Under the pieces are notes generated by a model that saw nothing but the letters and a program-made list of their open reading frames with translations, had not been told where the DNA came from and did not search any database. A stretch of 64,000 bases of DNA from Alphaproteobacteria bacterium (GTDB lineage Bacteria > Pseudomonadota > Alphaproteobacteria > UBA828). Numbering within the stretch: the first letter of the stretch is position 1; the number at the start of each line of letters is the position of its first letter. The stretch lies in contig CBDEFM010000002.1 in assembly GCA_965237415.1 (NCBI GenBank), forward strand, positions 1,760,001 through 1,824,000. Direction: 5' to 3'. The translations under genes and the position numbers were made by a program. This document shows positions 2,233 to 46,800 of the stretch, piece after piece.

Positions 2233-2300
2233 TAACCCGCACGTCTCGCCACGGTCGCGGCCTGGCTCCCCGTCCCACCTCGGGCAGAATTCAATCTTGA

Positions 2301-2340
2301 GGCGGGATTCGGTGGGATTAAGTGGGATAAGTGGGATTCC
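2301..2340 (+). repeat. ~10-bp tandem repeat (GGGATTAAGT-like) with four GGG tracts
   Basis: GGG at 2304, 2314, 2324, 2333; same array at 39757-39806. Confidence 0.9.
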
Positions 2341-2492
2341 GTGAGACAAGGTCGCCCGTGCCTGAGTCGCGCAAGCCCGAGTCGCCCGCGCCTGAAAGGT
2401 CGCGGGCGCGCCAGATAGGGTCGTGCACGCGGAATAGGATCCCGCAAGCACCCCCGTCGCGCTCGCCGCGGCCCGTTCGCTCTTGCGCTGTA

Positions 2493-2507
2493 TGGCACGG
2501 CAATTGC
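2493..2507 (+). promoter_or_regulatory. Consensus sigma54 -24/-12 motif
   Basis: TGGCACGGCAATTGC = TGGCACG-N4-TTGC, GG-N10-GC spacing. Confidence 0.55.
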
Positions 2508-2604
2508 GCCGGCGGCGCGCAGACCGCGGCCGCGGTGAGACATCCGGGCCCCACGATGAGCCGGGCGCGCGTGTTCGGTTGCGGCGGATGCGGAGCCCCC
2601 GGCC

Positions 2605-3570
2605 TCACCCCGGTCCGCTCCATTCCGCAGGGCAGAAGGGAGGGTCGGTCGGCCAGAGTCGGCCTTCCGCCTCGCGCCGTCTCAGCTCGGCATCGCGCGC
2701 CCCGTGCGCGTCCCATGCATCGTCTGCTTGCGCGCGTGGACGCGCGACGCGCACCCCACGCGCGTCCGCATCCTGCGCCCCGTCGGCGGTAGGCGGATCG
2801 GGCGCCGGCTTCGGCAGGGTGACGGGAGAGTCCTCGGCAGAGGCCGCGGCCCACCCGGATGCCGGCGGTGGCGGCTCTGTGCGCCCAGGGAAGACGTGCC
2901 CCTCGAGAGCCCGGCGGACGGTCTCGACCCGTTCGGCATGCGTCATACTGGCCGCGCGCGCGGCCGGTCCGGCGTGCGCGGCGGCGGCATCGGCCGCCGC
3001 CTGCTCGCGCTCGATGCGGAGCTTGTCCGCGCTTTCGATACGGTAGAGCGCGAGGGCGAGGCGGGCGAGGTCCTCCGTCGGCACAGGCTCCGTGCGCTGG
3101 CTGAGCTCGGCCATCGTGCGGAGCGCCAGCGTTCGCAGGGTCTCGATCGCGATGAGGGCGCTAAGCCCCTCGGCGCGGGGGTCGCGCGTGCGCTCCCATT
3201 CCTCGGCAAAGCGAACGGTCTCGCGCTGCAGGCAGATCAGGCCGTCCATGCGCTCGGCCCAGCGGCCCTCGGCGGGTCGCGCCCGCGCGCAGCGTCGTGC
3301 GCGCGGGATCAAATCCGAACTCTCGCCGTCGCCCGCGCGGACGCGCGCCACGATCTCGTCCATGGTGGCGCCGCCCTCGATCGCTGCGGCGACGGCGTCC
3401 TGGATTGCGGCCGGCAGCGGCTCGTCCGGCGAGCGCTCGCTCTCGCACTGCGTCGCGCGGATACGCGCGCGGGAAGATGATCGACGCATGGCGCAAGTCT
3501 GACGCGGACGCTGCGCACCATGCACCGCACCATGGTCCGGAGTCGCCCGCGCCCGAAGGGTCGGGGGCAC
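2605..3570 (-). CDS. DUF3486-like (Mu-like phage gp27) protein; start uncertain (GTG 3570 or ATG 3489)
   Basis: LPAAIQDAVAAAIEGGATMDEIVARV...IAIETLRTLAL...EDLARLALALYRIESADKLRIERE resembles DUF3486; frame and C-terminus conserved in second copy. Confidence 0.65.
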   Translation of the reverse strand: MPPTLRARATPDHGAVHGAQRPRQTCAMRRSSSRARIRATQCESERSPDEPLPAAIQDAVAAAIEGGATMDEIVARVRAGDGESSDLIPRARRCARARPAEGRWAERMDGLICLQRETVRFAEEWERTRDPRAEGLSALIAIETLRTLALRTMAELSQRTEPVPTEDLARLALALYRIESADKLRIEREQAAADAAAAHAGPAARAASMTHAERVETVRRALEGHVFPGRTEPPPPASGWAAASAEDSPVTLPKPAPDPPTADGAQDADARGVRVARPRAQADDAWDAHGARDAELRRREAEGRLWPTDPPFCPAEWSGPG

Positions 3571-3717
3571 AGCATAAAGAGTCGCGCGACCCTGAGTCGC
3601 ACGCGCCCGAAGGGTCGCGGGCGCGGAACCAAGGTCGTGCGCGCGGCGAATTAGGGTACGCGCGCGTCACATAATGTCGTGCGCGCGGAACGAGACAGTG
3701 GCAGGAATTCCGAGTTA

Positions 3718-3757
3718 GGGACGGCTGCCTCGGATCGCTGGAGGCAGCCGTCTCCCC
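3718..3757. terminator. GC-rich hairpin abutting element end
   Basis: GACGGCTGCCTC-N9-GAGGCAGCCGTC inverted repeat; no U-tract. Confidence 0.4.
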
Positions 3758-4159
3758 TCGCTGGGCCCGCGTACCGGTCGGGGCCCGGACCGTCGAAATT
3801 GCTTACCCTTGGAACGCGCGTTTCTCGGCGACGAAATCGATTGACGTGAAGTCCTGCAACCTGAAGGGGCCTCCCCCACAGGAGCCGAGGTCGTTCACGG
3901 TAGCCTCCCCTCGGCCCGCCCTGATCGTTGCTGTGCCAGGGCGCTGACCACGCGATGCCTGCCTCGCTCCGACGATTATTCTAAGGCCGCATTCTTTGGC
4001 GGCGCCCAACCACGCGGCCGACAGTGCCTCCCTGCGATAACCGCGTCCAATAAGGAATTCTCATAAAGGGCATAAGCGCCCCTTATGCCCGGGCGGCATG
4101 GAATTGGCGTGAGAGACGTGTCGGGAATGGGTGCGCAGTACGCCTGCCGGGTGCCCCGG

Positions 4160-5524
4160 CTAATCCTCGCGCAGGGAGCGGTAGAAGAAGTCCGTCACGG
4201 GCTTGACCAGGAAGCTCATGACCGAGCGCTCCTCGGTGCGGATATGGGCTTCCACCGGCATGCCGGGCGTCAGCACCAGATTGCCGGCCACTCGGTTCGA
4301 GCCGCGCGCGGCCCCGGTCTCTTCCGCGTTTCCCGCCGCCGGGCCGGTGCCGTCAGGCCCGTCCAGCGCAAGCTCGACCTCGTACCAGGAGACTCCGCTC
4401 TCCGCATCGCGTACCGCATCAGGCGAGACCCGCACCACGTGCCCGTCGAATTCCGGCGTCACGCGCGCGGGAAAGGCGGAGAAGCGGAGTTTCGCATCCT
4501 GCCCGGGATAGACCTGATCCACGTTGATCGGATTGAGCCGCGCCGTCACCACCAGCCCGGCATCCTCCGGCACGATCTGCAGGATCGGCTCGCCCGGCCT
4601 CACCACCTCCTGCGGCGCGAGTACCGTGAGCCCGAACACCTCGCCCGAGACCGGCGCCCGCACCTCCAGGCGGCCAAGGCTGCGTTGGACCGAGGCGAGA
4701 CGCTCCTTGACCTCGTTCTCCCGCGCCTGGATATCGCGCGCCTGCTCTTCCGCCTCCTCGATGCGCCGCGCGTCGATCTGGAGAATCTGAATCTTCAGCT
4801 CTGCAATCTTGCCGCGGGCGCGGGCGATGGAGGCGGCGATGGCGCCCGAGCGCCCCTCCAGGTCCGCGGCGGCGCGCTCGATGGCCATCAGCCGGTCGAG
4901 CCGCGTGAGCCCCTTGTCGAACAGCGTCCGTTGCGCCGCGAGTTCGCGGTCGATCAGCACGGCCTGATCCTTCAACGAGGCCGCCTGCGCTTCCAGACCC
5001 GCGATCTCCTCGCGCGCCTGCCCGATCCGCTCGCGAATCTGCGCCACCTCGCCGGCCCGCGCCGCCTCCCGCGCCCGGAACAGCCGCTCCTGGCCGTCGA
5101 GGATCTGTTGCACCTGCGGGTCCGCCGCCGCCATGGTCAGAAGCTCTTCGTCCCAGACGATGGCCTCCGCACTCAGGAACTCCGCCTCCAGCCGGTTTCG
5201 CCAGGCCGCGAGCTCGGCGAACTGCGCCTTGAGGATCGCTTCGTCCGATCGCATTTGCCCGTCGCTGAAGCGCAGCAGCACGTCGCCCCGAGTAACGCGG
5301 TCGCCGTCTCGCACCAGGATTTCGCTCACCGTGCCGCCGTCTATGTGCTCGACAACCTGATTGCCGCTTTCGACCTCCACGAGCCCCGCCGCGATCACCG
5401 CGCCCGAGATGGAGGCGAACATGCTCCAACCGAGGAAGCCGCCGAAAAGGACCGCCACGCCCCCGAACCCAAGCACCAGCGCCCTCCCGGCCGAGGAGCG
5501 CCCGTGGGCCGTTCGCGCCGTCAC
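4160..5524 (-). CDS. HlyD-family type I secretion periplasmic adaptor (PrtE-like)
   Basis: N-terminal TM, VVEHIDGGTVSEILVRDGD, coiled coil, LTPGMPVEAHIRTEERS; GTG overlaps upstream TGA. Confidence 0.92.
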   Translation of the reverse strand: MTARTAHGRSSAGRALVLGFGGVAVLFGGFLGWSMFASISGAVIAAGLVEVESGNQVVEHIDGGTVSEILVRDGDRVTRGDVLLRFSDGQMRSDEAILKAQFAELAAWRNRLEAEFLSAEAIVWDEELLTMAAADPQVQQILDGQERLFRAREAARAGEVAQIRERIGQAREEIAGLEAQAASLKDQAVLIDRELAAQRTLFDKGLTRLDRLMAIERAAADLEGRSGAIAASIARARGKIAELKIQILQIDARRIEEAEEQARDIQARENEVKERLASVQRSLGRLEVRAPVSGEVFGLTVLAPQEVVRPGEPILQIVPEDAGLVVTARLNPINVDQVYPGQDAKLRFSAFPARVTPEFDGHVVRVSPDAVRDAESGVSWYEVELALDGPDGTGPAAGNAEETGAARGSNRVAGNLVLTPGMPVEAHIRTEERSVMSFLVKPVTDFFYRSLRED

Positions 5525-7353: not shown

Positions 7354-7755
7354 CGCTCCGCTCTCCTACGAAGTCACCATCCGTATCGTCGTTCTCGGCG
7401 CTCCCGACCGATGTCTCTGCGCCGGTTCGCCCGGCTGATCGAGTGCTGTCCTGTTTAGAGTTGGCACCGGCGAGCGCGCCTTCAACGCCGGCTCCCGAAT
7501 TATAAAGTTATGGGTGACCAAATATGCTCTAACGGCAGTCCCAGGCCGGCCCGTTTCCTCAGTCGATGCAGTTCCTTGCCAATGAGGACTGTTGCTTCGC
7601 CTGTGCAAATGACCGCACATGCGGACAATTCGTGGCTGTGTCGCAATCGAGGGACAGACGCGCCTCGCGTCTCGTTGCGGCGGGGCCAGGGCATGAGCAG
7701 AATGGCCCGATCGGGCCGGAACGGGCCATTTCGGGTAGGGAACGGGGAGCCTCTC

Positions 7756-8985: not shown

Positions 8986-9022
8986 GGCTGAGGCCAATGG
9001 GGCCGTTGGCGCCTGGAAGCCC

Positions 9023-15119: not shown

Positions 15120-15126
15120 CGGTCGC

Positions 15127-24609: not shown

Positions 24610-24657
24610 TCCGGCGAGGACGGCGGCAAGACGACAACCCAAGCGAATGAGACGACC

Positions 24658-25851
24658 ATGACGCGGCATGTGGAGATCGCAGGGGGCGGCTTTACCGGGC
24701 TCACCATGGGCACGGCGCTCGCCCAGACCGGCTGGACGGCGCGGGTGCATGAGCGCTCGGCGGAGATCCGCGCCTTCGGCGCCGGCATCTGGATCTGGGA
24801 CAACGGCGTGCGCGTGCTCAAGGCGATCGGCGCGGCCGACGATGCGCTCGAAGGCTGCACGGAGGCGCCGACCTATATCAGCCGCGACGCCAACGGCCGC
24901 TTCATCGACGAGGTGCCGTTCGCGCCCATCACCAGCACCGATCGCTCGCGCATGTTCTGCATCACCCGCCAGCAGCTCCTGAGCGCGATTCTCGGCGCAG
25001 CGGAGCGGGCCGGGGTGGAGATCGTCACCGAATCGACCGCGACCGGCGCACGGCCCGACGGCACGCTGCTGATGGAAGATGGGCGGGAATGGCCGGCGGA
25101 CCTTGTCATCGCCGCCGACGGAATCAACTCCAAGGTGCGCGATTCGCTCGGCCTGCTGAAGAGCCGCAAGCCCCATGTCGATGGCGCCGTTCGAGTCCTG
25201 GTGCCGCACGAGCCGGGCTACGCCGACACCGAGGAGGGCCGCACCATCCGCGAGTGGTGGAACGGCTACCGGCGGGTGCTCTACACGCCGTGCACCAGCG
25301 AGGTCTTTTATCTCTGCTTCACCATGCTCGCGCGGGACGCAGAGGCGTCCCAGATTCCCCTGCCGCGGGCGATCTGGACCGAATCCTTCCCGCACCTCCA
25401 ATCGATGATCGGCCGGGTACCGGACGAAGGGCGCTACGACCGCTTCGAGACGATCAAGCTCAAGGCGTGGAGTAAGGGCCGGGTGGCGATCGTGGGCGAT
25501 TCGGCCCACGCCATGTCGCCGGGGCTCGGCCAGGGCTGCGGCACGGCAATCTCGAACGCCCTCTCGCTCTCCAACATGCTGCAGGAATCCGACGACATCG
25601 ACCGGGTGCTGAGGCGCTGGGAGACCCGCCAGCGGCCGATCTCCGAGCACACACAGCTCTGGTCGACGATCACCTGGCCGCTCACGCTCTGGCCTCACTG
25701 GGCGGCGCGGCTCTACTACAACCTGCCGATCTTGCACCCCTGGATGTTGAAACAACGGCGCAAGCCGTCCGAATTCTACGCCTACGGCACCGAGAAGCAG
25801 GTGCGCTGGATGCCGCCCCACATGCGCACCGAGGCCGAGGCAGCCGCGTAA
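24658..25851 (+). CDS. FAD-dependent monooxygenase, MHPCO (2-methyl-3-hydroxypyridine-5-carboxylate oxygenase)-like
   Basis: EIAGGGFTG, EIRAFGAGIWIW, ADGINSKVRDS, RVLYTPC, GDSAHAMSPGLGQG. Confidence 0.85.
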   Translation: MTRHVEIAGGGFTGLTMGTALAQTGWTARVHERSAEIRAFGAGIWIWDNGVRVLKAIGAADDALEGCTEAPTYISRDANGRFIDEVPFAPITSTDRSRMFCITRQQLLSAILGAAERAGVEIVTESTATGARPDGTLLMEDGREWPADLVIAADGINSKVRDSLGLLKSRKPHVDGAVRVLVPHEPGYADTEEGRTIREWWNGYRRVLYTPCTSEVFYLCFTMLARDAEASQIPLPRAIWTESFPHLQSMIGRVPDEGRYDRFETIKLKAWSKGRVAIVGDSAHAMSPGLGQGCGTAISNALSLSNMLQESDDIDRVLRRWETRQRPISEHTQLWSTITWPLTLWPHWAARLYYNLPILHPWMLKQRRKPSEFYAYGTEKQVRWMPPHMRTEAEAAA

Positions 25852-25924
25852 GGCACGCCGCACGCAGGCACCGCAGCGCAGGCCGGTCCGTAGCGGCAGG
25901 GCATGAGCGGCGGATGAGGCGAGC

Positions 25925-27118
25925 ATGACACGACATGCAGAGATCGCCGGCGGCGGATTCACCGGGCTCACGATGGGCGCGGCGCTCGCCCAGGCAGGCT
26001 GGACGGTGCGCGTCCACGAGCGCACGCCGGAGATCCGCGCCTTCGGCGCCGGCATCTGGATCTGGGACAACGGCGTGCGCGTCCTCAAAGCAATCGGCGC
26101 GGCGGACGACGCGCTCGAAGACTGCACCGAGGCGCCGACCTACATCAGCCGGGACGCCAAGGGCCGCTTCATCGACGAGGTGCCCTTCGCGCCCATCACC
26201 AGCACCGATCGCTCACGCATGTTCTGCATCACCCGCCAGCAACTCCTGAGCGCGATTCTCGGCGCAGCGGAGCGGGCCGGTGTGGAAATCGTTATCAGTT
26301 CTTCGGCGACCGGCGCGCGGCCCGACGGCACGCTCATTACCGAGGACGGACGCGAATGGCCGGCTGACCTCGTCATCGCCGCCGACGGGATCAACTCCAA
26401 TGTGCGGGACTCGCTCGGCCTCATGAAGAGCCGCAAGCCCCACGTGGATGGCGCCATCCGCGTCCTCGTACCGCACGAGCCGGGCGACGCCGATACCGAA
26501 GAGGGTCGCACCATCCGCGAGTGGTAGAACGGCCACCGGCGGGTGCTCTACACGCCGTGCACCAGCGAGGTCTTCTATCTCGCCTTCACCATGCTCGCGA
26601 GCGACAGGGAGGCGTCGCAGCTGCCGCTCCCACGGGCGCTCTGGATCGAGGCCTTCCCGCACTTGGAATCGATGATCAACCGGGTGCCGGACGAGGGGCG
26701 CTACGACCGCTTCGAGACGATCAAGCTCAAGGCGTGGAGTAAGGGCCGGGTGGCGATCGTGGGCGATTCGGCCCACGCCATGTCGCCGGGGCTGGGCCAG
26801 GGCTGCGGCACGGCGATCTCGAACGCCCTCTCGCTCTCAAACATGTTGCAGGAATCCGACGACATCGACCGGGTGCTGAGGCGCTGGGAGACCCGCCAGC
26901 GGCCGATCTCCGAGCACACACAGCTCTGGTCGACGATCACCTGGCCGCTCACGCTCTGGCCTCACTGGGCGGCGCGGCTCTACTACAACCTGCCGATCCT
27001 GCACCCCTGGATGCTGAAGCAGCGGCGCAAGCCGTCCGAATTCTTCGCCTACGGCACCGAGAAGCAGGTGCGCTGGATGCCGCCCCACATGCGCGCCGAG
27101 GCGGGAGCGGCGGCGTAG
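25925..27118 (+). pseudogene. Tandem paralog of the monooxygenase with in-frame TAG
   Basis: Same 1194-nt length, collinear; TGG->TAG at 26525-26527. Confidence 0.88.
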
Positions 27119-32086: not shown

Positions 32087-32158
32087 TCCCGCCCCCAGCC
32101 ACGGCCATGGCCGACGCTTGCTCCCGACCGTCACTCCGTGTTTCAGTCCGGCCGGACC

Positions 32159-32427
32159 AAGCCCGGAGTTCTCACCAATGTCACGGCCTGCGTCGCACCC
32201 AGACGTTCGATCCGCCAGGAGTGAGCCGAAAAGCGTAGCGGTGTCTACGGTTGAGGTCCACGACGCCGCGGGCGGGCGTCTGGGCGCGACCCGAAGGGCG
32301 GCGCTGTCCGGCCGACAGTGTGCGTCACGCCGCTTGCCCGATGTCCCGCATCGCGCTGCACGCCGTTCCTGCCCTGTCGGCCGGACAGCGCCGCGCAGAC
32401 CATGACATTGGTGAGAATTCCGGGCTA
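32159..32427. mobile_element. MITE (~265 bp) of the same TIR family
   Basis: 33-nt ends 29/33 identical: AAGCCCGGAGTTCTCACCAATGTCACGGCCTGC vs rc TAGCCCGGAATTCTCACCAATGTCATGGTCTGC; internal 18-bp IR 32301-32318/32374-32391. Confidence 0.85.
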
Positions 32428-32440
32428 AGGAGAGGGCGGT

Positions 32441-33553
32441 ATGAAGCTCGGCATGTTCATGATGCCGGTGAACGATCACCGGCGGGACACCCACACGGTG
32501 CTCAAGGAGGACGTGGAGATCGCGGTCGCCTGCGACCGCTTCGGCTTCGACGAGTTCTGGATCGGCGAGCACTACACGACCCTCAGCGAGCCGGTCACCT
32601 GCCCCTTCATGTTCCTCTCCAATCTGATCGCGCGGACGACACGCATGAAGCTCGGCACCGGCGTGGTCAACCTGCCCCAGCGCCACCCGGTTCAGACCGC
32701 CGCCCACGCGGCGCTGCTGGATCACCTCAGCGACGGGCGGCTGATCCTGGGCGTGAGCCCCGGCGGCCTGGTCAGCGACTTCGAGATGTTCGGCGTGACC
32801 GACCTCCAGGTCCGCCGCGAGATGGCCGGCGAAGCGATCGAGACCGTGCTCAAGCTCTGGTCTACCGATCCGCCCTACGACATCAGGGGCAAGTACTGGA
32901 CCCTCAGGCTCGAGGACTATCACTGGCCCGACCTCGGCGTCGGCGCCATGATCAAGCCCTATCAGAAGCCGCACCCGCCGCTGGTCGCGTCGGCCATGAG
33001 CCCGGATTCCGGCGGTGTAAGCAGCGCTGCCGCGCGCGGCTGGGGCGTGATCTCGGCCAACTTCGTGCCGGTCTCGACCATCAAGAACCACTGGCAGGGC
33101 TTCTCGGACGGCTGCACGCGGAGCGGCCGCGAGCCCCGGCCGGCGGACTGGCGCGTCGCCCGCTCGATTTTCGTCGCGGACGACGACGCCTGGGCCAAGG
33201 CCTACGTTCGCGATCCCGAAGGGCCGCTCGCCCACTACTACGGCTATCTGGTGACCCTCGTCAGGCGGGCCGCCTTCCACGCGATCATGAAGAGCGGGCC
33301 GGAGATGGCGGACGAGGACGTGACCCCGGCTTACGCCTGCGACGCCTTCTCCATCGCCGGCGATCCGGACTCGGTGGCGGAGCAAATTCTCGCGCTGCGC
33401 GAGGAGGTGGGGCCCTTCGGCACCGTCCTCATGACGGCGACCGACTGCCTGAACGAGACCCACAAGGCGCACCAGTTGAACTCCATGCGGCTCATGGCCG
33501 ATGAGGTCATGCCCAGGCTCAGGCGCGCGCTCGGCGACCGCGCGGCGGCCTGA
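32441..33553 (+). CDS. Luciferase-like (LLM) flavin-dependent monooxygenase
   Basis: MKLGMF, FWIGEHY, LDHLSDGRLILG, KPYQKPHPP. Confidence 0.92.
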   Translation: MKLGMFMMPVNDHRRDTHTVLKEDVEIAVACDRFGFDEFWIGEHYTTLSEPVTCPFMFLSNLIARTTRMKLGTGVVNLPQRHPVQTAAHAALLDHLSDGRLILGVSPGGLVSDFEMFGVTDLQVRREMAGEAIETVLKLWSTDPPYDIRGKYWTLRLEDYHWPDLGVGAMIKPYQKPHPPLVASAMSPDSGGVSSAAARGWGVISANFVPVSTIKNHWQGFSDGCTRSGREPRPADWRVARSIFVADDDAWAKAYVRDPEGPLAHYYGYLVTLVRRAAFHAIMKSGPEMADEDVTPAYACDAFSIAGDPDSVAEQILALREEVGPFGTVLMTATDCLNETHKAHQLNSMRLMADEVMPRLRRALGDRAAA

Positions 33554-33619
33554 CCGCGCCTGAGGATCGGAACGCGGGCACGACCGGCGGCGGCCGATCC
33601 GCTGACGCCAACGAAACCG

Positions 33620-34285: not shown

Positions 34286-34373
34286 CTCCCAAGATCGCGC
34301 GAGAGCGCGTATTGATAGATCAACATCCACATGAATGTCGGCCGCCCAAGCGGCCGCTAGAGGAAGAGACACC

Positions 34374-34904
<531 letters not shown>

Positions 34905-34986
34905 GGCTCGGAGACAGACATTCAAGAGCGCCTCGGCTAAGCTTGATGCAACCGGGTGGCGCACCCAAACCCAAGGGGGACTCTTC

Positions 34987-35970: not shown

Positions 35971-36012
35971 CGCGCGCCGCCGGCGCCCGCCGGCCACCGA
36001 GGCGTAAGCCCC

Positions 36013-38726: not shown

Positions 38727-38728
38727 CC

Positions 38729-39700
38729 ATGGAAGGGGTGACGTGGTTCGTCCTGGTGATCGACGCGACGCTCCGCGTGTCGACGCCGCTCATCCTCGCC
38801 GCCTTCGCCGGCATGTTTGCCGAGCGCTCGGGCGTGGTCGATATCGGCCTCGAAGGCAAGATGCTGGGCGGAGCCTTCGCCGCGGCGGCAGCGGCGTTCG
38901 CCACCGGCTCAGCCTGGATCGGCCTGCTCGCCGGCATCGGGGCCTCGGTCGCGCTCGCGATGGTCCATGCCTTCGCCTGCGTCACTCACCGGGGCGATCA
39001 GGTGGTCTCGGGCATGGCGCTCAACATCCTGGTGGCGGGGCTCGGGCCAGTGCTGTCGCTCGCCTGGTTCGGCCAGGGCGGGCATACGCCGATGGTGGCG
39101 GATGCCGCGCGCTTCCGCCCAATTCACTTCCCCTTCGCCGACCGGTTGAGCGACGTGCCGTTCCTCGCCCAGATCTATTCGGAAATCGCCAGCGGCCACA
39201 ATCTGATCGTCTATATCGCGCTCGGCATGGTCCCGCTCGCGGCGTGGTTCATCTACAAGACCCGCTTCGGGCTGAGGCTCCGCGCAGTCGGCGAGGCGCC
39301 GGAGGCTGTGGACACCGCCGGCATCTCGGTCGCCGGCATGCGCTACCGGGCGATGATCGTCTGCGGCATCCTGTGCGGTATCGCCGGCACGTCGCTCTCG
39401 ATCGCCCAGAACGCGCTCTTCGTGCGCGATATGAGCGCGGGCATGGGCTATCTCGCGCTCGCTGCGCTCATCTTCGGCAAATGGCGCCCGGTGCCGACCC
39501 TCTTCGCCTGCTTCCTCTTCGCCTTCGCCGACGCCGTGCAGGCGAGGCTGCAGGGCGTCGATGTCCCAGGCGTCGGCGTCATCCCGGTGCAGGCGATCCA
39601 GGCGCTCCCCTACCTGCTGACCGTGCTGCTGCTCGCGGGCTTCGTCGGCAAGGCGGTCCCGCCCAAGGCGAGCGGCGTTCCCTACGTGAAGGAGCGTTAG
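38729..39700 (+). CDS. Nucleoside ABC permease 2
   Basis: ERSGVVDIGLEG, KTRFGLRLRAVGE, ends PYVKER; stop TAG coincides with element end. Confidence 0.92.
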   Translation: MEGVTWFVLVIDATLRVSTPLILAAFAGMFAERSGVVDIGLEGKMLGGAFAAAAAAFATGSAWIGLLAGIGASVALAMVHAFACVTHRGDQVVSGMALNILVAGLGPVLSLAWFGQGGHTPMVADAARFRPIHFPFADRLSDVPFLAQIYSEIASGHNLIVYIALGMVPLAAWFIYKTRFGLRLRAVGEAPEAVDTAGISVAGMRYRAMIVCGILCGIAGTSLSIAQNALFVRDMSAGMGYLALAALIFGKWRPVPTLFACFLFAFADAVQARLQGVDVPGVGVIPVQAIQALPYLLTVLLLAGFVGKAVPPKASGVPYVKER

Positions 39701-39908
39701 CCCGGATATCTCGCCGGGCTCACGGACTGCATCGGGCGGGCGAAGCATCAAATTAAGGCGGGATTCGGCGGGATTAAGTGGGATTAAGTGGGATAAGTGG
39801 TATTCCGCGGGGACAACCGCCCGCCGTCCTCCATGACCACGGCGGGGACTGCGGGCGGCCGCATTCCCTGCCTTCGCCTGCCGCCGCCCCGTTCGCTCTT
39901 GCGCTGTA

Positions 39909-39923
39909 TGGCACGGCAATTGC
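39909..39923 (+). promoter_or_regulatory. Consensus sigma54 -24/-12 motif (copy 2)
   Basis: TGGCACGGCAATTGC, identical to 2493-2507. Confidence 0.55.
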
Positions 39924-40022
39924 GCCGGCGGCACGCAGACCGCGGCCGCGGTGAGACATCCGGGCCGCACGATGAGACGGGCGCGCGTCTGCCTGGTCGC
40001 GGCGGAGGAGGAGCCCCCCGCC

Positions 40023-40659
40023 TCACCCTGGCCCGCTCCACTCCGCAGGGCAGAAGGGAGGGTCGGTCGGCCAGAGTCGGCCTTCCACCTCCCGCCGTCT
40101 CAGCTCAGCATCCCGCGCCCCGTGCGCGTCCCACGCGTCCTGTGCACCGTCGCCGGCAGGCGACTCGGACGTGGGGTCCGGCGGGGTGACGTGGGAGTCA
40201 GCGGGAGAGGCGGCGGCCCACCCGAATGCCGCCGGCGGCGGGTCTGTGCCCCCAGGGAAGAGGTGCCCCTCCATGGCCCGGCGGACGGTCTCGACCCGTT
40301 CGGCATGCGTCATAGTGGCCGCGCGCGCGGCCGGCCCGGCGTGCGCGGCGGCGGCATCGGCCTTCGCCTGCTCGCGCTCGACGCGGAGCCTGTCGGCGGC
40401 TTCGATGCGGTAGAGCCCGAGCGCGAGGCGGGCGAGGTCCTCCGTCGATACCGGTTCCGCGCGCTTGCCGAGCTCGGCCATCGTAACCAGAGCCAGCGTT
40501 CGCAGGGTCTCGATCGCGATGAGGGCGCTAAGCCCCTCGGCGCGGGGGTCGCGCGTGCGCTCCCATTCCTCGGCAAAGCGATCGGTCTCGCGCTGCAGGC
40601 AGATCAGGCCGTCCATGCGCTCGGCCCAGCGGCCCTCGGCGGGTCGCGCACGCGCGCAG
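40023..40659 (-). pseudogene. DUF3486-like gene copy 2, 3' part
   Basis: CARARPAEGRWAERMDGL...PTDPPFCPAEWSGPG matches copy 1; cut by IS21. Confidence 0.85.
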
Positions 40660-40813
40660 TGTCGATGACGGTCCAAAAGTGCGCCTATTCGCTGCATTCA
40701 GCACGTGAGTGCGGTGACGATGTAGCAGCTTGTTTGGCGGGTGGAAGCGTGCCTCGTCGGAGCTGTGGATAGGCGGCTTGTCGCAGCGACCGCCCTCGTC
40801 TATGGACGCCCCC

Positions 40814-41070
40814 GGTAATGCAAGCTTTTCTTTGAACGGCACGGTGCATGCGGTCAGGTGCTGTCGTCTATCCGGCCTGTTGATGCGGCATTTCGATCGC
40901 CGCTGGCCCGTATGGAGATACGCGAACCGGGTCCAAAATCGAGTCTGCGAGCTTGAACGCTCTCAGGACGGTGCTGGTTTTCCCGATCCGGTCTCATTGA
41001 CCGTATGCCCTCCTTACCTGTCCTCCGACCTGCCCACATCCCCGACGGCTTCCCGCGATTGTCCGCCCTG
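40814..41070 (-). ncRNA. Putative bridge/seek RNA of the IS1111-type element (exact ends unknown)
   Basis: Contains matches to both target flanks and to the element end (see findings). Confidence 0.8.
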
Positions 41071-42096
41071 TCAGGCGGTTGCGGGAACCCGATAGATCTC
41101 CTTCTTCGCCGTCACCGCCCAGGCGACGCGCGCCATTTTGTTGGCCAGCGCAACCGCGACGAGCATCTTCGGCTTGCGCGCCAGCATTTCGGCCAGCCAA
41201 GGATCCCTCGTCTCGCCACCACGGCGCTCCGCCGCTTGGATTACAGACATGGCACCCGTGATCAAGAGCCGCCTGAGATCGCGCTGGCCCATCTTCGATA
41301 CCTTGCCAAGCCTTGGCTTGCCGCCAGTCGTATGCTGTCGCGGCACGAGGCCTAGCCAGGCGGCGAAGTCGCGCCCGCGCCTGAAGCTCTCCATCGGTGG
41401 GGCGAAAGCCTGTACTGCCATGGCCGTGATCGGCCCGATGCCCGGGATCGTCATGAGCCGTGCCGCCTCTTCGTCCTGGCGTGCGCAAACGCGGAGCTCC
41501 TTCTCCAAATCGTAGATCTTCGCATCGAGGTCTGAGACCTGACCGAGCAGTAGGTCACCCAGCTCGCGAACCGGCTCCGGTAGCCCCGAGCTCGGATCCA
41601 TGAGTGCCGCCTCCAGCCGCTTGACATGAGCTGGCCCCTGTGGAGCGATGACGCCGAACTCCGCCAGGTGACCCCGTAGCGCGTTAATCGTCTGCGTGCG
41701 CTGGCGCACCAGGAGGTCGCGTGTGCGGAACAGCATCCCTCGAGCCTGCTGCTCTTCCGTCTTCACGGCCACCAAGCTCATGGTGGGGCGCTGCGCGGCC
41801 TCGCAAGTCGCCTCCGCGTCCCTCGCGTCATTTTTCTGCCGTTTGACGAATGGCTTGACATATATCGGTGGGATTAGCTTGACCTCGTGTCCGAGCATCT
41901 CGGTCTCTCTACCCCAATAGTGAGCGCTCGCGCAGGCCTCCATCGCCACCACGCAGGGCGGTTGCGAGGCGAGGAAGTCGAGTAGCTTGCCCCGGCTCAG
42001 CTTCTTGCGGAACACAACGGACCCGTCTGCCCGCGCACCATGCAACTGAAAGCTGTGCTTCGCCAGATCGATCCCGATGATGCTAGCCTGATCCAT
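41071..42096 (-). CDS. IS110-family recombinase/transposase
   Basis: IGIDLAK, AMEA, KNDARDAE (DEDD), IPGIGPITA, WLGLVPRQHTTGGK; RBS GGAGG before ATG 42096. Confidence 0.96.
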   Translation of the reverse strand: MDQASIIGIDLAKHSFQLHGARADGSVVFRKKLSRGKLLDFLASQPPCVVAMEACASAHYWGRETEMLGHEVKLIPPIYVKPFVKRQKNDARDAEATCEAAQRPTMSLVAVKTEEQQARGMLFRTRDLLVRQRTQTINALRGHLAEFGVIAPQGPAHVKRLEAALMDPSSGLPEPVRELGDLLLGQVSDLDAKIYDLEKELRVCARQDEEAARLMTIPGIGPITAMAVQAFAPPMESFRRGRDFAAWLGLVPRQHTTGGKPRLGKVSKMGQRDLRRLLITGAMSVIQAAERRGGETRDPWLAEMLARKPKMLVAVALANKMARVAWAVTAKKEIYRVPATA

Positions 42097-42441
42097 GGAG
42101 GCCTCCTCCCTCAGGTGGTTCGACACCACCACCTTGGCACGATTCGCTGCCGTCGGGAGGGGGCGTCCACTCCCTCGAGTCTGGCAAGGCAAGCCGGCTA
42201 TCCACAGCGGGCAGGCGTCGCGATTCCGGTGGCGGCGGGCGAACTGGCGGCAGCCCCTCGGACCTGAACAGCAAGATCGGTAGGGCTACACTCGGGCCGC
42301 TGAGAACGATGCGGCGCCGGCCACGTCTGCTTGGTGGCAAGAGCCGGCGCCGCACCCCCCGAGCCATGCTCGGCACGGCCCAGATGCACAGTATCGTGCG
42401 GGTTTTGGCGGGGGTCGAGCCCGTTCTCATCGACCGCCGCG

Positions 42442-42888
42442 ATGAGGAACTTCGGCCGCCTGTTCAACTGCGCCCACTGCGATCGGCAGGTGGTTCTCTG
42501 CCCGCGCTGCGACCACGGCAACATGTACTGCTCAGCGGACTGCCGCGAGACGGCGCGCAGGCAGGCGCAGCGTCTTTGCGGGCAGCGCTATCAGGACAGC
42601 CTCCAGGGTCGTCGCAAGCACGCGCAGCGGCAGCAGCGCTATCGCGATCGGCACCGGCGTCGGGTGCCGGAGAATGAGGTCTGCGCGCAGAAAGTGACGC
42701 ATCACCCTTTGACCCGCGGGCACCGTCGTCCTGTTGTGCCACAGACGCCGATGACGCGTCGCGGGACACAACCCTTTGGGCACGGGCGGCCTGCCAGGGT
42801 CTTCCGCTGCCATCGCTGCGGCCGGTTCTGCGCGCAGTTTGTCCATCCGGGCCTGCGCCCGGTCCGGCATCCGGCACGAGAAGGGTGA
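42442..42888 (+). CDS. Cys-rich putative zinc-binding protein inside the IS21
   Basis: CAHC, CPRC, CSADC, CHRC motifs; basic; stop 1 nt before istA ATG. Confidence 0.7.
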   Translation: MRNFGRLFNCAHCDRQVVLCPRCDHGNMYCSADCRETARRQAQRLCGQRYQDSLQGRRKHAQRQQRYRDRHRRRVPENEVCAQKVTHHPLTRGHRRPVVPQTPMTRRGTQPFGHGRPARVFRCHRCGRFCAQFVHPGLRPVRHPAREG

Positions 42889-42889
42889 G

Positions 42890-44395
42890 ATGACCATCGA
42901 CAAGAAGACGCGCGCGGAGATCCTGCGCCTCCATTACGCCGAGAAGTGGAAGATCGGCACGATCGCAAACCAACTCGGCGTCCATCACATCACGGTCCGC
43001 CGCGTTCTGGCCGACGACGGGGTGCCTCGGCATATGAGGCGGCACCGGCGCTCGAAGCTCGATCCCTTCATGCCCTTCATCCGCCAGACACTGGCTCACT
43101 ATCCGAAGCTGACCGCCAGCCGGCTCTACGAGATGGCGTGCGAGCGCGGCTACCAGGGGAGCCAGAGCCACTTCCGCAACATGATCGCCCCCGAGCGGCC
43201 GAAGCCTGTGGCCGAGGCCTATCTGCGTCTCAAGACCCTTCCCGGCGAGCAGGCCCAGGTCGATTGGGGACACTTCGGCAAAGTGAAGCTCGGTCGCGCG
43301 GAGCGCCCGCTGATGGGCTTCGTGATGGTTCTGAGCTTCTCGCGACGCATCTTCCTGCGCTTCTACCTCAACGCCGCGATGAGCAACTTCCTGCGTGGCC
43401 ATATCGACGCCTTCGAGGCGTGGCAGGGCGTGCCCCGCGAGCTCTGGTACGACAACCTGAAGAGCGTCGTGCTGGAGCGCCGCGGCGACGCCATCCGCTT
43501 CAATCCCCAGTTCCTCGACTTCGCCGGCCACTACCGTTTCCTGGCACAGCCCGTCGCGATCGCGCGCGGCAATGAGAAGGGGCGCGTGGAACGGGCGATA
43601 CGCTACGCTCGCGACAGCTTCTTCGCCGCTCGCTCATGGCGCGATATCGACGACCTCAACGCCCAGGCCCAGGCCTGGTGCGATGGCATCGCCGCCGAGC
43701 GGCCCTGGCCCGAAGACCACTCCATCAGCGTGCGCGAGGCCTTCGAGCGGGAACGCAGCTCTCTCATTGCGCTGCCCGGCGATCGCTTCCCCGCCGACGA
43801 ACGGGTCGAGGCCTCCATCGGCAAGACCCCTTACGTCAGATTCGACCTCAACGACTACAGCGTGCCGCACACCCATGTGAGCCGCACTCTCGTCGTCCTC
43901 GCGACCCTCGACGAGGTGCGCATCCTCGACGGCGCGGACGTCATCGCCACCCATCCACGCAGCTTCGACAAGGCAGAGCGTGTCGAAAACCCCGACCACA
44001 TCGCCGGCCTGGTCAGGCACAAGCGTCATGCCCGGCGCCTTCGCGGGCAGGATCGGCTGGTCCAGGCCGCGCCCAACAGCGAGCGCCTGCTCACCGACGC
44101 CGCCAAGCGCGGCAGCAATCTCGGCACCATCGTCGCCGCCCTACTGCGCCTCCTCGACGGGTACGGCGCCGCCGAGCTCGAGGCGGGCATCGACGAGGCC
44201 CTGAAGCGCGGCGTCCCCCATCCGAACGCCGTGCGCCTGAGCCTGGCCCGGCGGCGCGAACTGCGAGACGAGCCCCCGCCCATCCCCGTCGACCTGCCCA
44301 AGCATCCACGCCTGCGCGATATCGCGGTGCGCGACCACGATCTCGGCGGATACGACGGACTGGCCGGTGGGCCCGAAGAGGACAGCGAAGAATGA
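42890..44395 (+). CDS. istA: IS21 transposase
   Basis: N-terminal [34 protein letters not shown]. Confidence 0.95.
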
Positions 44396-45201
44396 CCGAC
44401 ACCCTCAAGGACCGTGCCCGCGCGCTGCGCCTGTACGGCCTCATCGCCCACTGGGACGACATCGGCGAGTGCAGCTGGCTGCCCACCCTCATCGCCTGGG
44501 AAGAGGAAGAACGGCGAAGCCGCAGCCTCAAGCGGCGCCTCAGCGAGGCCCGCATTGGACACTTCAAGCCCCTCGTCGACTTCGATTGGGACTGGCCCCG
44601 CCGCTGCGACCCAATGGTCATCGAGGACCTCATGAGCCTCGAGTTCCTGCGCGAGGCCGCCAACGTCGTCCTCGTCGGCCCAAACGGGGTGGGCAAGTCC
44701 ACCATCGCCGCCAACCTCGCCCACCGCGCCATCATCGAGGGGCACACCGTGCGCTTCACAACTGCAGGAAACATGCTCGGTGAGCTCGCCGCCCTCGATA
44801 GCGACAGCCTGCTCCAGCGCAAGCTCCGATTCTACGCCCGCCAACAGCTGCTGGTGATCGACGAGGTCGGCTACCTCTCCTATAGCAATCGCCATGCCGA
44901 TCTGCTGTTCAATATCGTCTCCAGCCGCAGCCAGCAGCGCTCCACCATAATCACCACAAACCGGCCCTTCGCCGAGTGGAGCGAAGCCTTCCCCAACGCC
45001 GCCTGCGTCGTCGCCCTCGTCGACCGCCTCATCCACAACGCCGAGATCATCGCCATCGACGGCGATTCCTATCGCCGAAAGGAGGCCGAGGAACGCCAGA
45101 AGAAGCGCAGCGCAGAGCGCCGCCGCCGCCGGGGCGCAGCAGGCCGTCGGCGAGCCGGAAAGGCCGACGCCCTGGACCGCGAGCCGCCGTCGGCGGCGTA
45201 G
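44392..45201 (+). CDS. istB: IS21 helper AAA+ ATPase
   Basis: GPNGVGKS, LLVIDEVGY, IITTN, VDRLIH, GDSYR. Confidence 0.95.
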   Translation: MTDTLKDRARALRLYGLIAHWDDIGECSWLPTLIAWEEEERRSRSLKRRLSEARIGHFKPLVDFDWDWPRRCDPMVIEDLMSLEFLREAANVVLVGPNGVGKSTIAANLAHRAIIEGHTVRFTTAGNMLGELAALDSDSLLQRKLRFYARQQLLVIDEVGYLSYSNRHADLLFNIVSSRSQQRSTIITTNRPFAEWSEAFPNAACVVALVDRLIHNAEIIAIDGDSYRRKEAEERQKKRSAERRRRRGAAGRRRAGKADALDREPPSAA

Positions 45202-45418
45202 TCATAGATCGTCTCTCGCCATGGTACGGGCGGGTGCAGGCCGAGACCCTGAGAGCCTATCCCCTCGAAGGCGTCGCGCGATCCCTCGGCTACCGCCGCG
45301 ACCCCGATGTCGATGACGCACCCTGGAGGCACCTCGGATTGATCGTCAGCATCAACCGCCGACCACGTCCAACTCCAGAAATGCAGCAAATACGCGCATT
45401 CCTAAGCCGTCGCTAACA

Positions 45419-45616
45419 CGCGCAGCGTCGTGCGCGCGGGATCAAAGGCGAACGGTCGCCGCCCCGCGCACGGACGCGCGCCACGATCTCGTCCATGGTG
45501 GAGCCGTCCTCGATGGCTGCGGTCACGGCGTCCTGGATTGCGGCCGGCAGCGGCTCGTCCGATGAGCAGTCCCCGCCCATCGCACCTGCCGTGCCCGGCG
45601 TGCTCTCGCACTGCAT
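45419..45616 (-). pseudogene. DUF3486-like gene copy 2, 5' part
   Basis: DEPLPAAIQDAVTAAIEDGSTMDEIVARVRA...LIPRARRC joins in frame to the 3' part across the TSD. Confidence 0.85.
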
Positions 45617-45744
45617 GACGCGATCCTGGCGCGCGCGCCGAGCACCGTGCACCGCACCATGGTCCGTCGCCCGCGCCCGCAGGGTCGCGGGCGCGGTATC
45701 AGGGTCCCGTGCGACGCCGACCATGACCGCGAGAAAATTCCGGG

Positions 45745-46800
45745 CTAGAGGCGGAGGCGTTCTCGCGTGAGATGGATGAGGCGGGCGAGGCCGTGCGGCT
45801 CGACGATCAGGATCACGATGATGAAGCCGCCGAAGATAATGACCTCGAGATGCTTGGCGAGGTCGACGGGAAAGTCGATGCCGAGCATCGTGTTCAGGTT
45901 GGTGAGGAAGATCGGCACGACGGTGATGAAGGCCGCGCCGATGATGGAGCCCGCGATCGAGCCGAGGCCGCCGACGATGACCATGAAGAGCACGAGGAAG
46001 GAGAGGTTGACGTCGAAGGCGAGCGTCTCGGCGCTGCCCAGATAGAGGAAGACGAAGAGCGAGCCCGCGACGCCGCAGAGATAGGAGCTCACGGCGAAGG
46101 CGAGAAGCTTGGTGCGGAGCAGCGGGATACCCACGATCTCGGCGGCCACGTCCATGTCGCGCACCGCCATCCAGGCGCGGCCGAAGCGGCTGCGCATCAG
46201 GTTGCGGGCGAAGAAGACGAAGACCGCGACGAAGACCAGCGCCACCAGATAGCGCACCTCGGCGGCCGCCTCCGGCCCGGTGATCATGACGCCCGCGAAT
46301 TTGCGCGGCGGTGCCGTGATCGTGCCGGACGGGTTGTCGTTGTAGAACCAGGGCACCCGGTTGAAGAGCCAGATCAGGAAGAACTGCGCCGCGAGCGTCG
46401 CCACCGCCAGATAGAAGCCCTTGATGCGCAGGCTCGGCAGGCCGAACAGGATGCCGACGCCGGCGGCGAAGAAGCCCGAGATGAAGAAGATGGCGATGAT
46501 GTCGACCCCGGGCCACGCGGTCGTCATCTTGTAGGTGGCGTAGGCGCCGACCGCCATGAAGCCGCCGGTGCCGAGCGAGAGCTGGCCTGCGAAGCCGGTG
46601 AGCAGATTGAGCCCGAGCGCCGCGAGCGCGAATATCAGGAAGGGGATCAGGATCGCCTGCAGCCAGTACTCGTTCGCGAGCGTCGGCACCGCGAAGAGGG
46701 CGAGCAGCGTGATCACGGTCACGAAGACGGTATCGATCGAGCGCGAGCGGGTCGCGAAGAGGGCGTTGCAGAGGTCGGTGAAATAGGCGCGCACGGTCAC
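45745..46800 (-). CDS. Branched-chain amino acid-type ABC permease (LivM-like)
   Basis: LNLLTGFAGQLSLG, GFYLAVATLA, VGGLGS; stop TAG coincides with element end. Confidence 0.9.
   Translation of the reverse strand: MTVRAYFTDLCNALFATRSRSIDTVFVTVITLLALFAVPTLANEYWLQAILIPFLIFALAALGLNLLTGFAGQLSLGTGGFMAVGAYATYKMTTAWPGVDIIAIFFISGFFAAGVGILFGLPSLRIKGFYLAVATLAAQFFLIWLFNRVPWFYNDNPSGTITAPPRKFAGVMITGPEAAAEVRYLVALVFVAVFVFFARNLMRSRFGRAWMAVRDMDVAAEIVGIPLLRTKLLAFAVSSYLCGVAGSLFVFLYLGSAETLAFDVNLSFLVLFMVIVGGLGSIAGSIIGAAFITVVPIFLTNLNTMLGIDFPVDLAKHLEVIIFGGFIIVILIVEPHGLARLIHLTRERLRL

What the first reader, a model, noticed from the sequence alone, without database searches (positions are those of the whole stretch)
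2233..45747. Dispersed family of transposase-less TIR elements: one MITE and two gene-carrying composite copies
Seen: six element ends share a ~33-nt motif. They are 2233 TAACCCGCACGTCTCGCCACGGTCGCGGCCTGG; rc3717 TAACTCGGAATTCCTGCCACTGTCTCGTTCCGC; 32159 AAGCCCGGAGTTCTCACCAATGTCACGGCCTGC; rc32427 TAGCCCGGAATTCTCACCAATGTCATGGTCTGC; 39698 TAGCCCGGATATCTCGCCGGGCTCACGGACTGC; rc45747 TAGCCCGGAATTTTCTCGCGGTCATGGTCGGC. Five of six start at TA within a YTAR. They pair into three elements, none encoding a cognate transposase. The two large ones share the order TIR - GGG array - sigma54 motif - internal TIR - DUF3486-like ORF (opposite strand) - GC hairpins - TIR. Inference: a non-autonomous cassette that disperses a solitary phage-derived gene. 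The end reading GTG AGA ATT CCG GGC TAA (VRIPG*) recalls from memory how some IS1380-family ORFs end inside their right IR; a TA-only duplication would instead point to IS630/mariner.
Basis: partly seen in the sequence, partly recalled or inferred. Interest (0 to 1): 0.85.

Follow-up and report, generated by a model that had tools for sequence, protein, structure and literature searches.

The report
Orphan MITE family with cargo-carrying copies
A small mobile DNA element without its own transposase, common in a group of uncultured alphaproteobacteria, occurs here once in its usual 269-base form and twice as an older, larger relative that carries a phage-type DNA-binding gene: a new family of a familiar kind of element, not a new kind.

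Summary
The six ends are real and related. The 269-bp element (32159-32427) is a standard member of a MITE family. Copies are modally 269-270 bp and flanked by TA in a C-TA-R context. One clean orthologous empty site shows a TA duplication. Its 102 predicted base pairs are kept by compensatory changes. No cognate transposase turned up: 133 ORFs beside 49 unpaired ends, and the window's long ORFs, gave none. E1 (2233-3717) and E3 (39698-45747) are two old copies (ORF dS 0.18) of one ~1.5-kb unit with diverged ends of the same family. It holds a repeat array, a sigma54-type motif, an internal end and a divergent Mu Gp27-like gene. E3 is large only because an IS21-family element, itself hit by an IS110-family element, split that gene. 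The gene-plus-ends link was seen only in this window. Its paralogues elsewhere could not be fetched. Verdict: a new member of known kinds (MITE and mobile insertion cassette), working like an IS630/mariner-type non-autonomous element. The IS1380 idea is not supported.

The parts
2233..3717 (.). E1: ~1.5-kb TIR-bounded unit carrying the Gp27-like gene; TA on both sides, outside bases C and G
2233..2265 (+). E1 left end (diverged TIR; matrix score 17; 26/33 to consensus)
2301..2341 (+). array of GGGATT repeats at about 10-nt spacing
   Evidence: (D6)
2364..2410 (+). GC-rich hairpin repeat (family D5)
2493..2507 (+). sigma54-type motif TGGCACG-N4-TTGC inside the best-conserved stretch 2469-2572 (96% to E3)
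   Evidence: (D7)
2519..2551 (-). internal end of the TIR family (matrix score 26)
2605..3489 (-). Gp27-like ORF P0001 (294 aa; PF11985 29.4 bits, cutoff 28; phrog_426)
3486..3540 (+). conserved stretch upstream of the ORF, ending in GCACCGCACCATGGTCCGG (3522-3540)
   Evidence: (D18)
3525..3625 (+). two further GC hairpin repeats (D5 copies at 3525-3571 and 3579-3625)
3685..3717 (-). E1 right end (diverged TIR; matrix score 11; 21/33 to consensus)
32159..32427 (+). standard 269-bp MITE; TIRs 32159-32191 and 32395-32427 (33 nt, 91% complementary); 79-93% identical over its length to copies in other assemblies
   Evidence: (I7)
39698..45747 (.). E3: second copy of the E1-type unit, interrupted by nested ISs; lies between two convergent permease genes whose stop codons are the flanking TA plus the G of each end
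39698..39730 (+). E3 left end (matrix score 31)
39757..39807 (+). GGGATT array
39909..39923 (+). sigma54-type motif
39935..39967 (-). internal end (matrix score 29); 39698-39967 is 270 bp
40023..40659 (-). 3' part of the split Gp27-like ORF
40660..45418 (+). IS21-family element (TG...CA; IRs 40667-40698 / 45380-45411; 7-bp duplication CGCGCAG at 40653-40659 and 45419-45425); istA 42890-44395, istB 44392-45201
40743..42227 (-). IS110-family element nested in the IS21 (transposase 41071-42099; bracketing inverted repeat 40743-40780 / 42190-42227; limits approximate)
45426..45640 (-). 5' part of the split Gp27-like ORF
45649..45695 (+). upstream motif (45649-45667) and one GC hairpin repeat
45715..45747 (-). 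E3 right end (1-nt deletion relative to the family)

Best explanation
All the ends belong to one family of non-autonomous DNA transposons that duplicate TA.

The 269-bp copy is a standard MITE. It is most likely cut and pasted by a DDE transposase made elsewhere, IS630/Tc1-mariner-like in behaviour and not identified. It inserts at TA in a C-TA-R context. Because each end begins with G, an insertion into the TA of a stop codon leaves TAG on both sides.

E1 and E3 are two old copies of a 1.5-kb derivative of the mobile-insertion-cassette type. A MITE-sized left unit runs from an outer end to an internal end and holds a GGGATT array and a sigma54-type motif. Next to it lie a solitary, divergent Mu Gp27-like DNA-binding gene and a further end beyond the gene. 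Use of that outer end would move the gene as a passenger.

After insertion, E3 was hit by an IS21-family element, which was then hit by an IS110-family element.

Shown: family membership of the ends; spread of the MITE; TA flanks; one clean empty site; E1/E3 homology ending at the ends; the nested ISs. Inferred: the kind of transposase; how the composite arose; that the composite was moved by its outer ends.
For: MITE.
They come from 36 assemblies, 35 titled Alphaproteobacteria, Rhodospirillales, Rhodospirillaceae or Defluviicoccus.
- There are 45 plus/minus end pairs under 1 kb apart, three of them in the window, with a modal length of 269-270 bp.
- 94 of 114 ends are preceded by TA, and the base before that is C in 75 of 114.
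- Among 41 paired copies, TA is on the left in 34 and on the right in 30. The outside bases are C in 34 and G or A in 39.
- L094 (occupied) against L085 (another assembly, empty) shows a single TA at the empty site.
- The window copy is 79-93% identical over its full length to copies elsewhere.

E-type.
- E1 and E3 are 87-96% identical in their shared blocks, and similarity ends at the outer ends.
- Both are flanked by TA.
- The left end plus spacer plus array of E1 recurs in another assembly: L071, 76% over 118 nt.
- The split E3 ORF has no stop apart from its own terminal one, with dN/dS 0.50 and dS 0.18 over 266 codons.
- The protein family has 566 or more members.
- 44 of 46 relatives match PF11985.
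- E3 lies exactly between two convergent permease genes, both of which keep a stop codon made of TA plus G.

No transposase.
- 133 ORFs within 2.5 kb inside 49 unpaired ends gave one IS6 DDE, two tyrosine integrases and one group II intron reverse transcriptase, and nothing consistent.
- 79 window ORFs of 230 aa or more, with the ORFs scanned, gave only the IS21 and IS110 genes.
Against: - No autonomous element with these ends was found, so the transposase type is inferred only from the TA duplication and target.
- Only one empty site is clean. The second (L052 against L070, paralogous segments of one genome) reads CACT-GAGG rather than a plain TA.
- The outer ends of E1 and E3 are far less alike (about 20-22 of 33, by eye) than the cores (87-96%). 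Several spacers do not align at all although dS is only 0.18. The two copies are therefore mosaics, and their ends may have separate histories.
- 0 of 99 TIR-bearing stretches from other genomes hold a close homologue of the gene.
- The two E-like relics in another assembly (L071, L080) have at best a weak left end (score 6) and no detectable right end.
- No empty site is available for E1 or E3.
- The two ends of each MITE copy co-vary at three otherwise free positions. A plain protein-binding TIR model does not predict that.
Confidence: 0.6

Rival explanations
1. E1 and E3 are not moved by the TIRs. The array, Gp27-like gene and upstream motif form a host or prophage-remnant module. It multiplied by duplication, recombination or some mechanism of its own, and the MITE-family ends beside and inside it are secondary insertions or decayed relics.
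For: - The outer ends are much more diverged than the core, and the spacers are not homologous.
- A 38%-identical homologue in L054 carries the same upstream motif GCACCGCACCATGGTCCGG, with no TIR in the about 125 bp to its right.
- In L071 the upstream motif is duplicated around a 1.2-kb low-GC insert. That suggests the module recombines on its own.
- Solo ends are very common in these genomes: 69 unpaired hits.
Against: - The same three ends lie in the same order and orientation in both copies.
- Similarity between E1 and E3 stops at the outer ends.
- E1's left end, spacer and array are conserved as one block in another assembly.
- Both copies are flanked by TA in a Y-TA-G context.
Confidence: 0.2
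2. The Gp27-like protein is the active part, not a passenger. One version: as a small-terminase-like protein it binds the GGGATT array next to the left end, as a pac-like site, and recruits a helper phage's or gene transfer agent's packaging motor, which would make the unit a minimal satellite. Another version: it is the end-binding factor for the element's own movement.
For: - The protein belongs to PF11985 and phrog_426, 'terminase small subunit'.
- The model shows short N-terminal helices followed by long helices.
- A phased repeat array lies 35-70 nt inside the left end in 4 of 4 E-like elements and in 0 of 38 standard MITEs.
- The gene is multi-copy and has been kept (dN/dS 0.5).
- From memory: in phage Mu the pac site lies close to the left end.
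Against: - No catalytic domain was detected.
- No phage or gene-transfer-agent genes are in the window.
- The array also occurs in L071 and L080, which have no intact gene.
- Binding of the protein to the array is untested.
- Standard MITEs move without this gene.
Confidence: 0.07
3. The 269-bp element is above all a structured RNA (or single-strand DNA) unit. What look like TIRs are the closing helix of a three-helix fold, and its spread uses a structure-dependent route, REPIN/RAYT-like or RNA-mediated, rather than a TIR-binding DDE enzyme.
For: - 97.7% of 2957 cells are paired.
- 26 pairs changed on both sides, against 10.2 +/- 1.6 in shuffles (0 of 500 reach it) and 0-11 when the partners are slid.
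- The three free positions of the ends co-vary between the two ends of each copy: 6, 13 and 16 of 29 sequences changed on both sides.
- There are 118 G.U cells against 31 A.C cells.
Against: - TA flanks and a single TA at the empty site are the mark of TA-duplicating DDE transposition.
- Any element with TIRs pairs end to end.
- Copies are related by descent, which inflates covariation counts.
- The G.U excess is biased, because the structure was predicted on that strand.
- No Rfam family matches.
- This reading can hold alongside the main one, as with the RNase III-cleaved Correia transcripts (PMC10969869, passages).
Confidence: 0.1

Closest known systems
IS630/Tc1-mariner-derived bacterial MITEs (for example MITEEc1, listed under IS630 in PMC11602168, passage)
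   Same: Short and without a transposase; terminal inverted repeats; TA on both sides with a single TA at an empty site; preference for a CTAG-like context (IS630's CTAG preference is recalled, not taken from a call).
   Different: No IS630-type or any other cognate transposase was found. The ends match nothing in the plasmid collection. ISfinder was not available.
Correia / NEMIS elements of Neisseria
   Same: Abundant orphan MITEs. They carry promoter motifs and are cleaved as RNA hairpins at their TIRs (PMC10969869, passages read). Their TA duplication is recalled.
   Different: No sequence relation was seen or tested. This element is longer (269 bp) and has two long internal helices kept by compensatory change. 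The sigma54-type motif is only in the E-type, and the Correia promoters are sigma70-like.
Mobile insertion cassettes (MICs)
   Same: Bounded by IS-type ends, without a transposase, carrying a passenger gene, and thought to be moved in trans (PMC3129680, passages read).
   Different: The partner IS is unknown. The ends are diverged. There is an extra internal end. Only two copies with known flanks are in hand.
Phage Mu Gp27 family (PF11985, DUF3486; small terminase subunit in PHROGs)
   Same: P0001 matches over residues 25-197 (29.4 bits, cutoff 28). 44 of 46 relatives match, best E 2.5e-49.
   Different: The gene is solitary, with no large terminase or other phage gene nearby. It is about 110 residues longer, with a proline-rich variable region and a conserved C-terminal WPTDPPFCP motif. 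It is multi-copy in several assemblies.
REPINs / REP elements moved by RAYT transposases (recalled)
   Same: Extragenic palindromic units whose hairpins are kept by compensatory change.
   Different: REPINs are shorter and leave no TA duplication. No RAYT gene was looked for or seen here.

Membership tests
MITE (generic) | short (under about 500 bp), terminal inverted repeats, no coding capacity for a transposase | tested here: met
   269 bp; 33-nt arms 91% complementary (I7); 41 paired copies elsewhere of 179-314 bp
MITE (generic) | many dispersed copies with target-site duplication and presence/absence polymorphism | tested here: met
   115 exact-pattern ends in 99 stretches; TA flanks in 34/41 (left) and 30/41 (right); one clean and one unclean empty site
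IS630/Tc1-mariner derivative | TA duplication | tested here: met
   L094 against L085; flank counts
IS630/Tc1-mariner derivative | an autonomous element with the same ends that encodes a DDE (DD[E/D]) transposase | tested here: not met
   None among 133 ORFs beside 49 unpaired ends, none in the window, none in plasmids. The search was partial: 8-kb chunks, a truncated scan, no ISfinder.
   2-bp TA duplication; no transposase ORF in or next to the elements
Mobile insertion cassette | passenger gene(s) between IS-type ends, no transposase | tested here: met
   E1: ends at 2233 and 3717 with the Gp27-like ORF between them. E3 is the same apart from the nested IS21/IS110.
Mobile insertion cassette | mobilised as a unit by a cognate transposase | tested here: inconclusive
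   Two copies at unrelated loci with homology ending at TA-flanked ends. But there is no empty site, no partner IS, and the ends are diverged and mosaic.
Phage_Mu_Gp27 (PF11985) | score above the Pfam gathering cutoff | tested here: met
   29.4 against 28 bits; 44/46 relatives match; phrog_426 E 1e-6; Atlas neighbours at 0.92 partly carry PF11985
Phage small terminase (function) | works with a large terminase in a phage packaging module; oligomeric ring; binds pac DNA | not testable with these tools
   No phage genes in the window. Fold searches gave nothing with E of 0.001 or below. No homologue by sequence in the PDB.
sigma54-dependent promoter | GG/GC elements, TGGCAC-N5-TTGC (consensus recalled) | tested here: met
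   TGGCACGGCAATTGC at 2493 and 39909; 2 hits against 0.04 expected. Activity and dependence on an activator were not tested.
Rfam RNA families | match at the gathering score | tested here: not met
   Only tRNA-Met in the window. Only chance-level hits in the MITE and E1.

The most novel reading that the evidence does not exclude
The E-type unit is a minimal transposable packaging module. It would combine a small-terminase-like protein with its own pac-like GGGATT array next to the left end, as in phage Mu, and be spread by MITE ends. From each insertion site it would let a helper Mu-like phage or gene transfer agent start headful packaging of the neighbouring chromosome.
Probability: 0.05. Interest if true: 0.85.

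Novelty: new member of a known kind. Interest (0 to 1): 0.4.

Why it matters
- These short elements and their solo ends sit at gene boundaries in many uncultured alphaproteobacterial genomes. Some lie at the same place beside ileS or ppk in different assemblies. Without a model for them they go unannotated, or their shadow ORFs are called as genes.
- Their ends supply TAG stops on both strands, and in the window they abut a ribosome-binding site. They can therefore change gene ends and expression.
- The whole-length structural conservation makes the family a good case for asking whether MITEs are kept for an RNA or DNA-structure function.
- The E-type shows that a phage-family DNA-binding gene can be captured and multiplied inside a chromosome. 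If the protein binds the adjacent array, that would be a simple system for studying passenger capture by non-autonomous elements.

Tried and rejected
- **Plasmid and phage collections.** E1 DNA, MITE DNA and the P0001 protein gave no match. A 50-nt end gave only chance hits, none covering 80%.
- **PDB by sequence.** Nothing.
- **Fold searches of the AF2 model** (pLDDT 73). Nothing at E of 0.001 or below. Small terminases appear only at E 3-6, and a DUF3486 phage protein at E 0.27. None of this is used as evidence.
- **Rfam.** Nothing.
- **A coding reading downstream of the sigma54-type motif.** Rejected: E1 and E3 differ by a 2-nt indel there.
- **'GGGATT' motifs near the distant homologue in L054.** Rejected as an array: they lie in its last codons.
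- **Assigning the E-type ends to MITE end type A or B.** Not robust.
- **Literature.** 'DUF3486' gave one unrelated phage paper. A search for MITEs in alphaproteobacteria listed nothing on this family (listing only). A census of prokaryotic MITEs (PMC11602168, passages) may include it in supplements I could not open.
- **Not done.** A covariance model of the MITE, because of the expected calibration time. Complex prediction, because no binding claim is made.

Full report
**The observation**

They align with 79% mean column identity. The 18-mer TAGCCCGGAATTCTCACC with up to 3 mismatches occurs 4 times, against 0.05 expected.

I built a weight matrix from 84 distinct ends of other genomes. It scores the window ends 17 (2233+), 11 (3717-), 52 (32159+), 61 (32427-) and 31 (39698+). 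The best score in 20 shuffles of the window was -1.6. The end at 45747 has a 1-nt deletion and is seen only in the gapped alignment.

The same matrix finds two more ends inside the large elements: 2551- (score 26) and 39967- (score 29). They match the family better than E1's outer ends do.

**What E3 is**

E1 (2233-3717) and E3 (39698-45747) are copies of one unit. Shared blocks are 87-88% identical, and 96% over 2469-2572.

Aligning E1 with E3 shows that 40660-45418 of E3 is an insertion. It begins TG and ends CA, has inverted repeats at 40667-40698 and 45380-45411, and is flanked by a 7-bp duplication, CGCGCAG. It encodes IstA and IstB. It is an IS21-family element.

Inside it, an IS110-family transposase gene (41071-42099, minus strand) is bracketed by a 38-nt inverted repeat.

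So E3 is E1-sized once the nested ISs are set aside, and its ORF is split. The two ORF pieces hold no stop apart from the gene's own terminal one. Read across the insertion, the frame runs uninterrupted to that stop.

**The small element belongs to a large family**

- They come from 36 assemblies. 35 are titled Alphaproteobacteria, Rhodospirillales, Rhodospirillaceae or Defluviicoccus. The single hit in an Archangium contig scores 6 and looks like chance.
- 45 plus/minus pairs lie under 1 kb apart, three of them in the window. The modal length is 269-270 bp.
- The window copy is 79-93% identical over its whole length to copies elsewhere.
- 94 of 114 ends are preceded by TA.
- Among 41 paired copies, TA is on the left in 34 and on the right in 30. 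The outside bases are C (34) and G or A (39).
- L094 holds a copy where the orthologous site in another assembly (L085) has a single TA. This is a clean TA duplication.
- A second pair, L052 and L070, are paralogous segments of one genome. It shows precise presence and absence, but the empty site reads CACT-GAGG, which is not clean.

**No cognate transposase**

69 ends were unpaired. Many are solo ends of about 40 bp that abut ordinary genes.

For the 49 with at least 1.2 kb of sequence inward, I scanned the three longest stop-to-stop ORFs of 200 aa or more within 2.5 kb, 133 ORFs in all. They are housekeeping genes. The exceptions are one IS6-type DDE (L051), two tyrosine integrases (L010, L097) and one group II intron reverse transcriptase (L082).

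In the window, 79 ORFs of 230 aa or more, together with the ORFs scanned, show an ordinary chromosome with recA, alaS, transporters and enzymes. The only transposases are those of the IS21 and IS110 elements.

The ends match nothing meaningful in the plasmid collection.

This search was partial. It used 8-kb chunks and a truncated scan, and ISfinder was not available.

**A conserved fold**

29 copies give a consensus of 102 pairs: the two ends pair with each other, and there are two long internal arms.

- 97.7% of cells are paired.
- 26 pairs changed on both sides, against 10.2 +/- 1.6 in shuffles (0 of 500 reach it) and 0-11 when the partners are slid.
- The three free positions of the ends co-vary between the two ends of each copy.
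- G.U cells outnumber A.C cells 118 to 31. The structure was predicted on that strand, so this last count is biased.

No Rfam family matches.

**The E-type unit**

From left to right in E1:

- the left end;
- after about 35 nt, an array of GGGATT repeats (2301-2341);
- a GC hairpin repeat;
- the motif TGGCACGGCAATTGC (2493; with the copy in E3, 2 in the window against 0.04 expected);
- the internal end (2551);
- on the minus strand, a 294-aa ORF (2605-3489);
- a conserved upstream stretch ending GCACCGCACCATGGTCCGG;
- two more hairpin repeats;
- the right end.

The sigma54-type motif points into the 3' end of the ORF. A protein reading downstream of it fails, because E1 and E3 differ by a 2-nt indel there.

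The stretch from left end to internal end is 319 bp in E1 and 270 bp in E3. It is MITE-sized, but its core is unrelated to the standard MITE.

**The protein**

- P0001 matches PF11985 (Mu Gp27, formerly DUF3486) at 29.4 bits, cutoff 28. It also matches phrog_426, 'terminase small subunit'.
- 44 of 46 relatives, down to 27% identity, match PF11985, best E 2.5e-49.
- The model is all-helical with pLDDT 73. Fold and PDB searches add nothing.
- The close family has 566 or more members at 70-87% identity. Three do so at 4,035,330 bp, the length listed for the window's own protein.
- In 1.84 billion representatives, only 134 clusters reach E of 0.001 or below.
- Between E1 and E3, dS is 0.18 and dN/dS is 0.50 over 266 codons.

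**How far the link between gene and ends goes**

None of the 99 stretches from other genomes holds a close homologue. L054 has a 38%-identical homologue 2.6 kb from a MITE. It has the same 19-nt upstream motif but no end to its right.

One other assembly has two E-like relics.

- L071 has an E1-like left end, spacer and array (76% over 118 nt). Then comes the upstream motif, twice, around a 1.2-kb low-GC insert with three small ORFs. The relic ends 10 nt before recG.
- L080 has the array, a remnant of the ORF's 5' end and the motif.

The E1 and E3 outer ends are only about two-thirds identical to each other, and several spacers do not align. The units are therefore mosaics.

**Reading**

The simplest account is a TA-duplicating, non-autonomous family moved in trans. 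It has a standard MITE form and an older cassette form that carries the Gp27-like gene.

It works like an IS630/mariner-derived element. Membership cannot be claimed without the transposase. The IS1380 idea fails on the duplication length.

The rival that the gene module spreads independently of the ends stays open, because I could not fetch the paralogues' flanks. The boldest reading, a transposable small terminase plus pac module, is not excluded but has no direct support.

MITEs, MICs and solo IRs are established categories (PMC3129680 and PMC10969869, passages read). I found no description of this family (listings). A large MITE census (PMC11602168, passages) may list it in supplements I could not open.

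Noticed in passing
window 40660-45418: IS21-family element (istA, istB, 7-bp duplication) with an IS110-family element nested in its left part. An extra Cys-rich ORF (42331-42888) upstream of istA has no Pfam match.
   Followed up: partly
window 39698-39700 and 45745-47: E3 lies exactly between two convergent BPD_transp_2 permease genes. Each stop codon is the flanking TA plus the G of the element's end, so a single shared TA would have ended both genes before the insertion.
   Followed up: partly
window 32420-32443: The MITE's right end abuts AAGGAG 8 nt before the ATG of a luciferase-like monooxygenase gene. In L055 a solo end sits upstream of a gene of the same Pfam family.
   Followed up: no
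alignment A3 (29 MITE copies from the window and loci): The whole 269-nt element keeps a three-helix fold through compensatory changes, including the three free positions of the two ends. No Rfam family matches.
   Followed up: yes
L071 3497-4839: The ~60-nt stretch that precedes the Gp27-like ORF is present twice (about 80% alike) around a 1.2-kb low-GC insert. The insert has three small minus-strand ORFs (59, 171 and 92 aa) without Pfam hits. It looks like cargo replacement or site-specific insertion at that stretch.
   Followed up: partly
window 2712-2762; L059 ~6421; L097 ~1667; L085 ~7818: A ~30-50-nt GC-rich palindromic mini-insert (core GCGCGCGTGGACGCGCGACGCG) occurs in frame inside the E1 ORF, where it adds 17 residues that E3 lacks. 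It also occurs inside some MITE copies.
   Followed up: partly
L001, L021, L053 (beside ileS); L050, L060, L063 (beside ppk): Ends or partial MITEs lie next to the same housekeeping gene in different assemblies. The sequences just inside the ends in L050 and L060 are nearly the same, which suggests old insertions kept across species.
   Followed up: partly
L082 1097-3043: A group II intron reverse transcriptase/maturase ORF lies about 160 bp from a MITE copy that lacks a detectable second end.
   Followed up: no
P0001 family alignment A2, columns ~255-330: A proline-rich region of variable length with tandem-repeat-like units, an invariant C-terminal WPTDPPFCP motif, and two N-terminal forms (MRRSSSRARIRATQCES... 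or MQCES...) that differ by a 36-nt indel in the DNA.
   Followed up: no
window 24643-26209: Two adjacent 300-nt stretches, 89% identical and 1267 nt apart, overlapping an FAD_binding_3 ORF: probably tandem paralogous genes.
   Followed up: no
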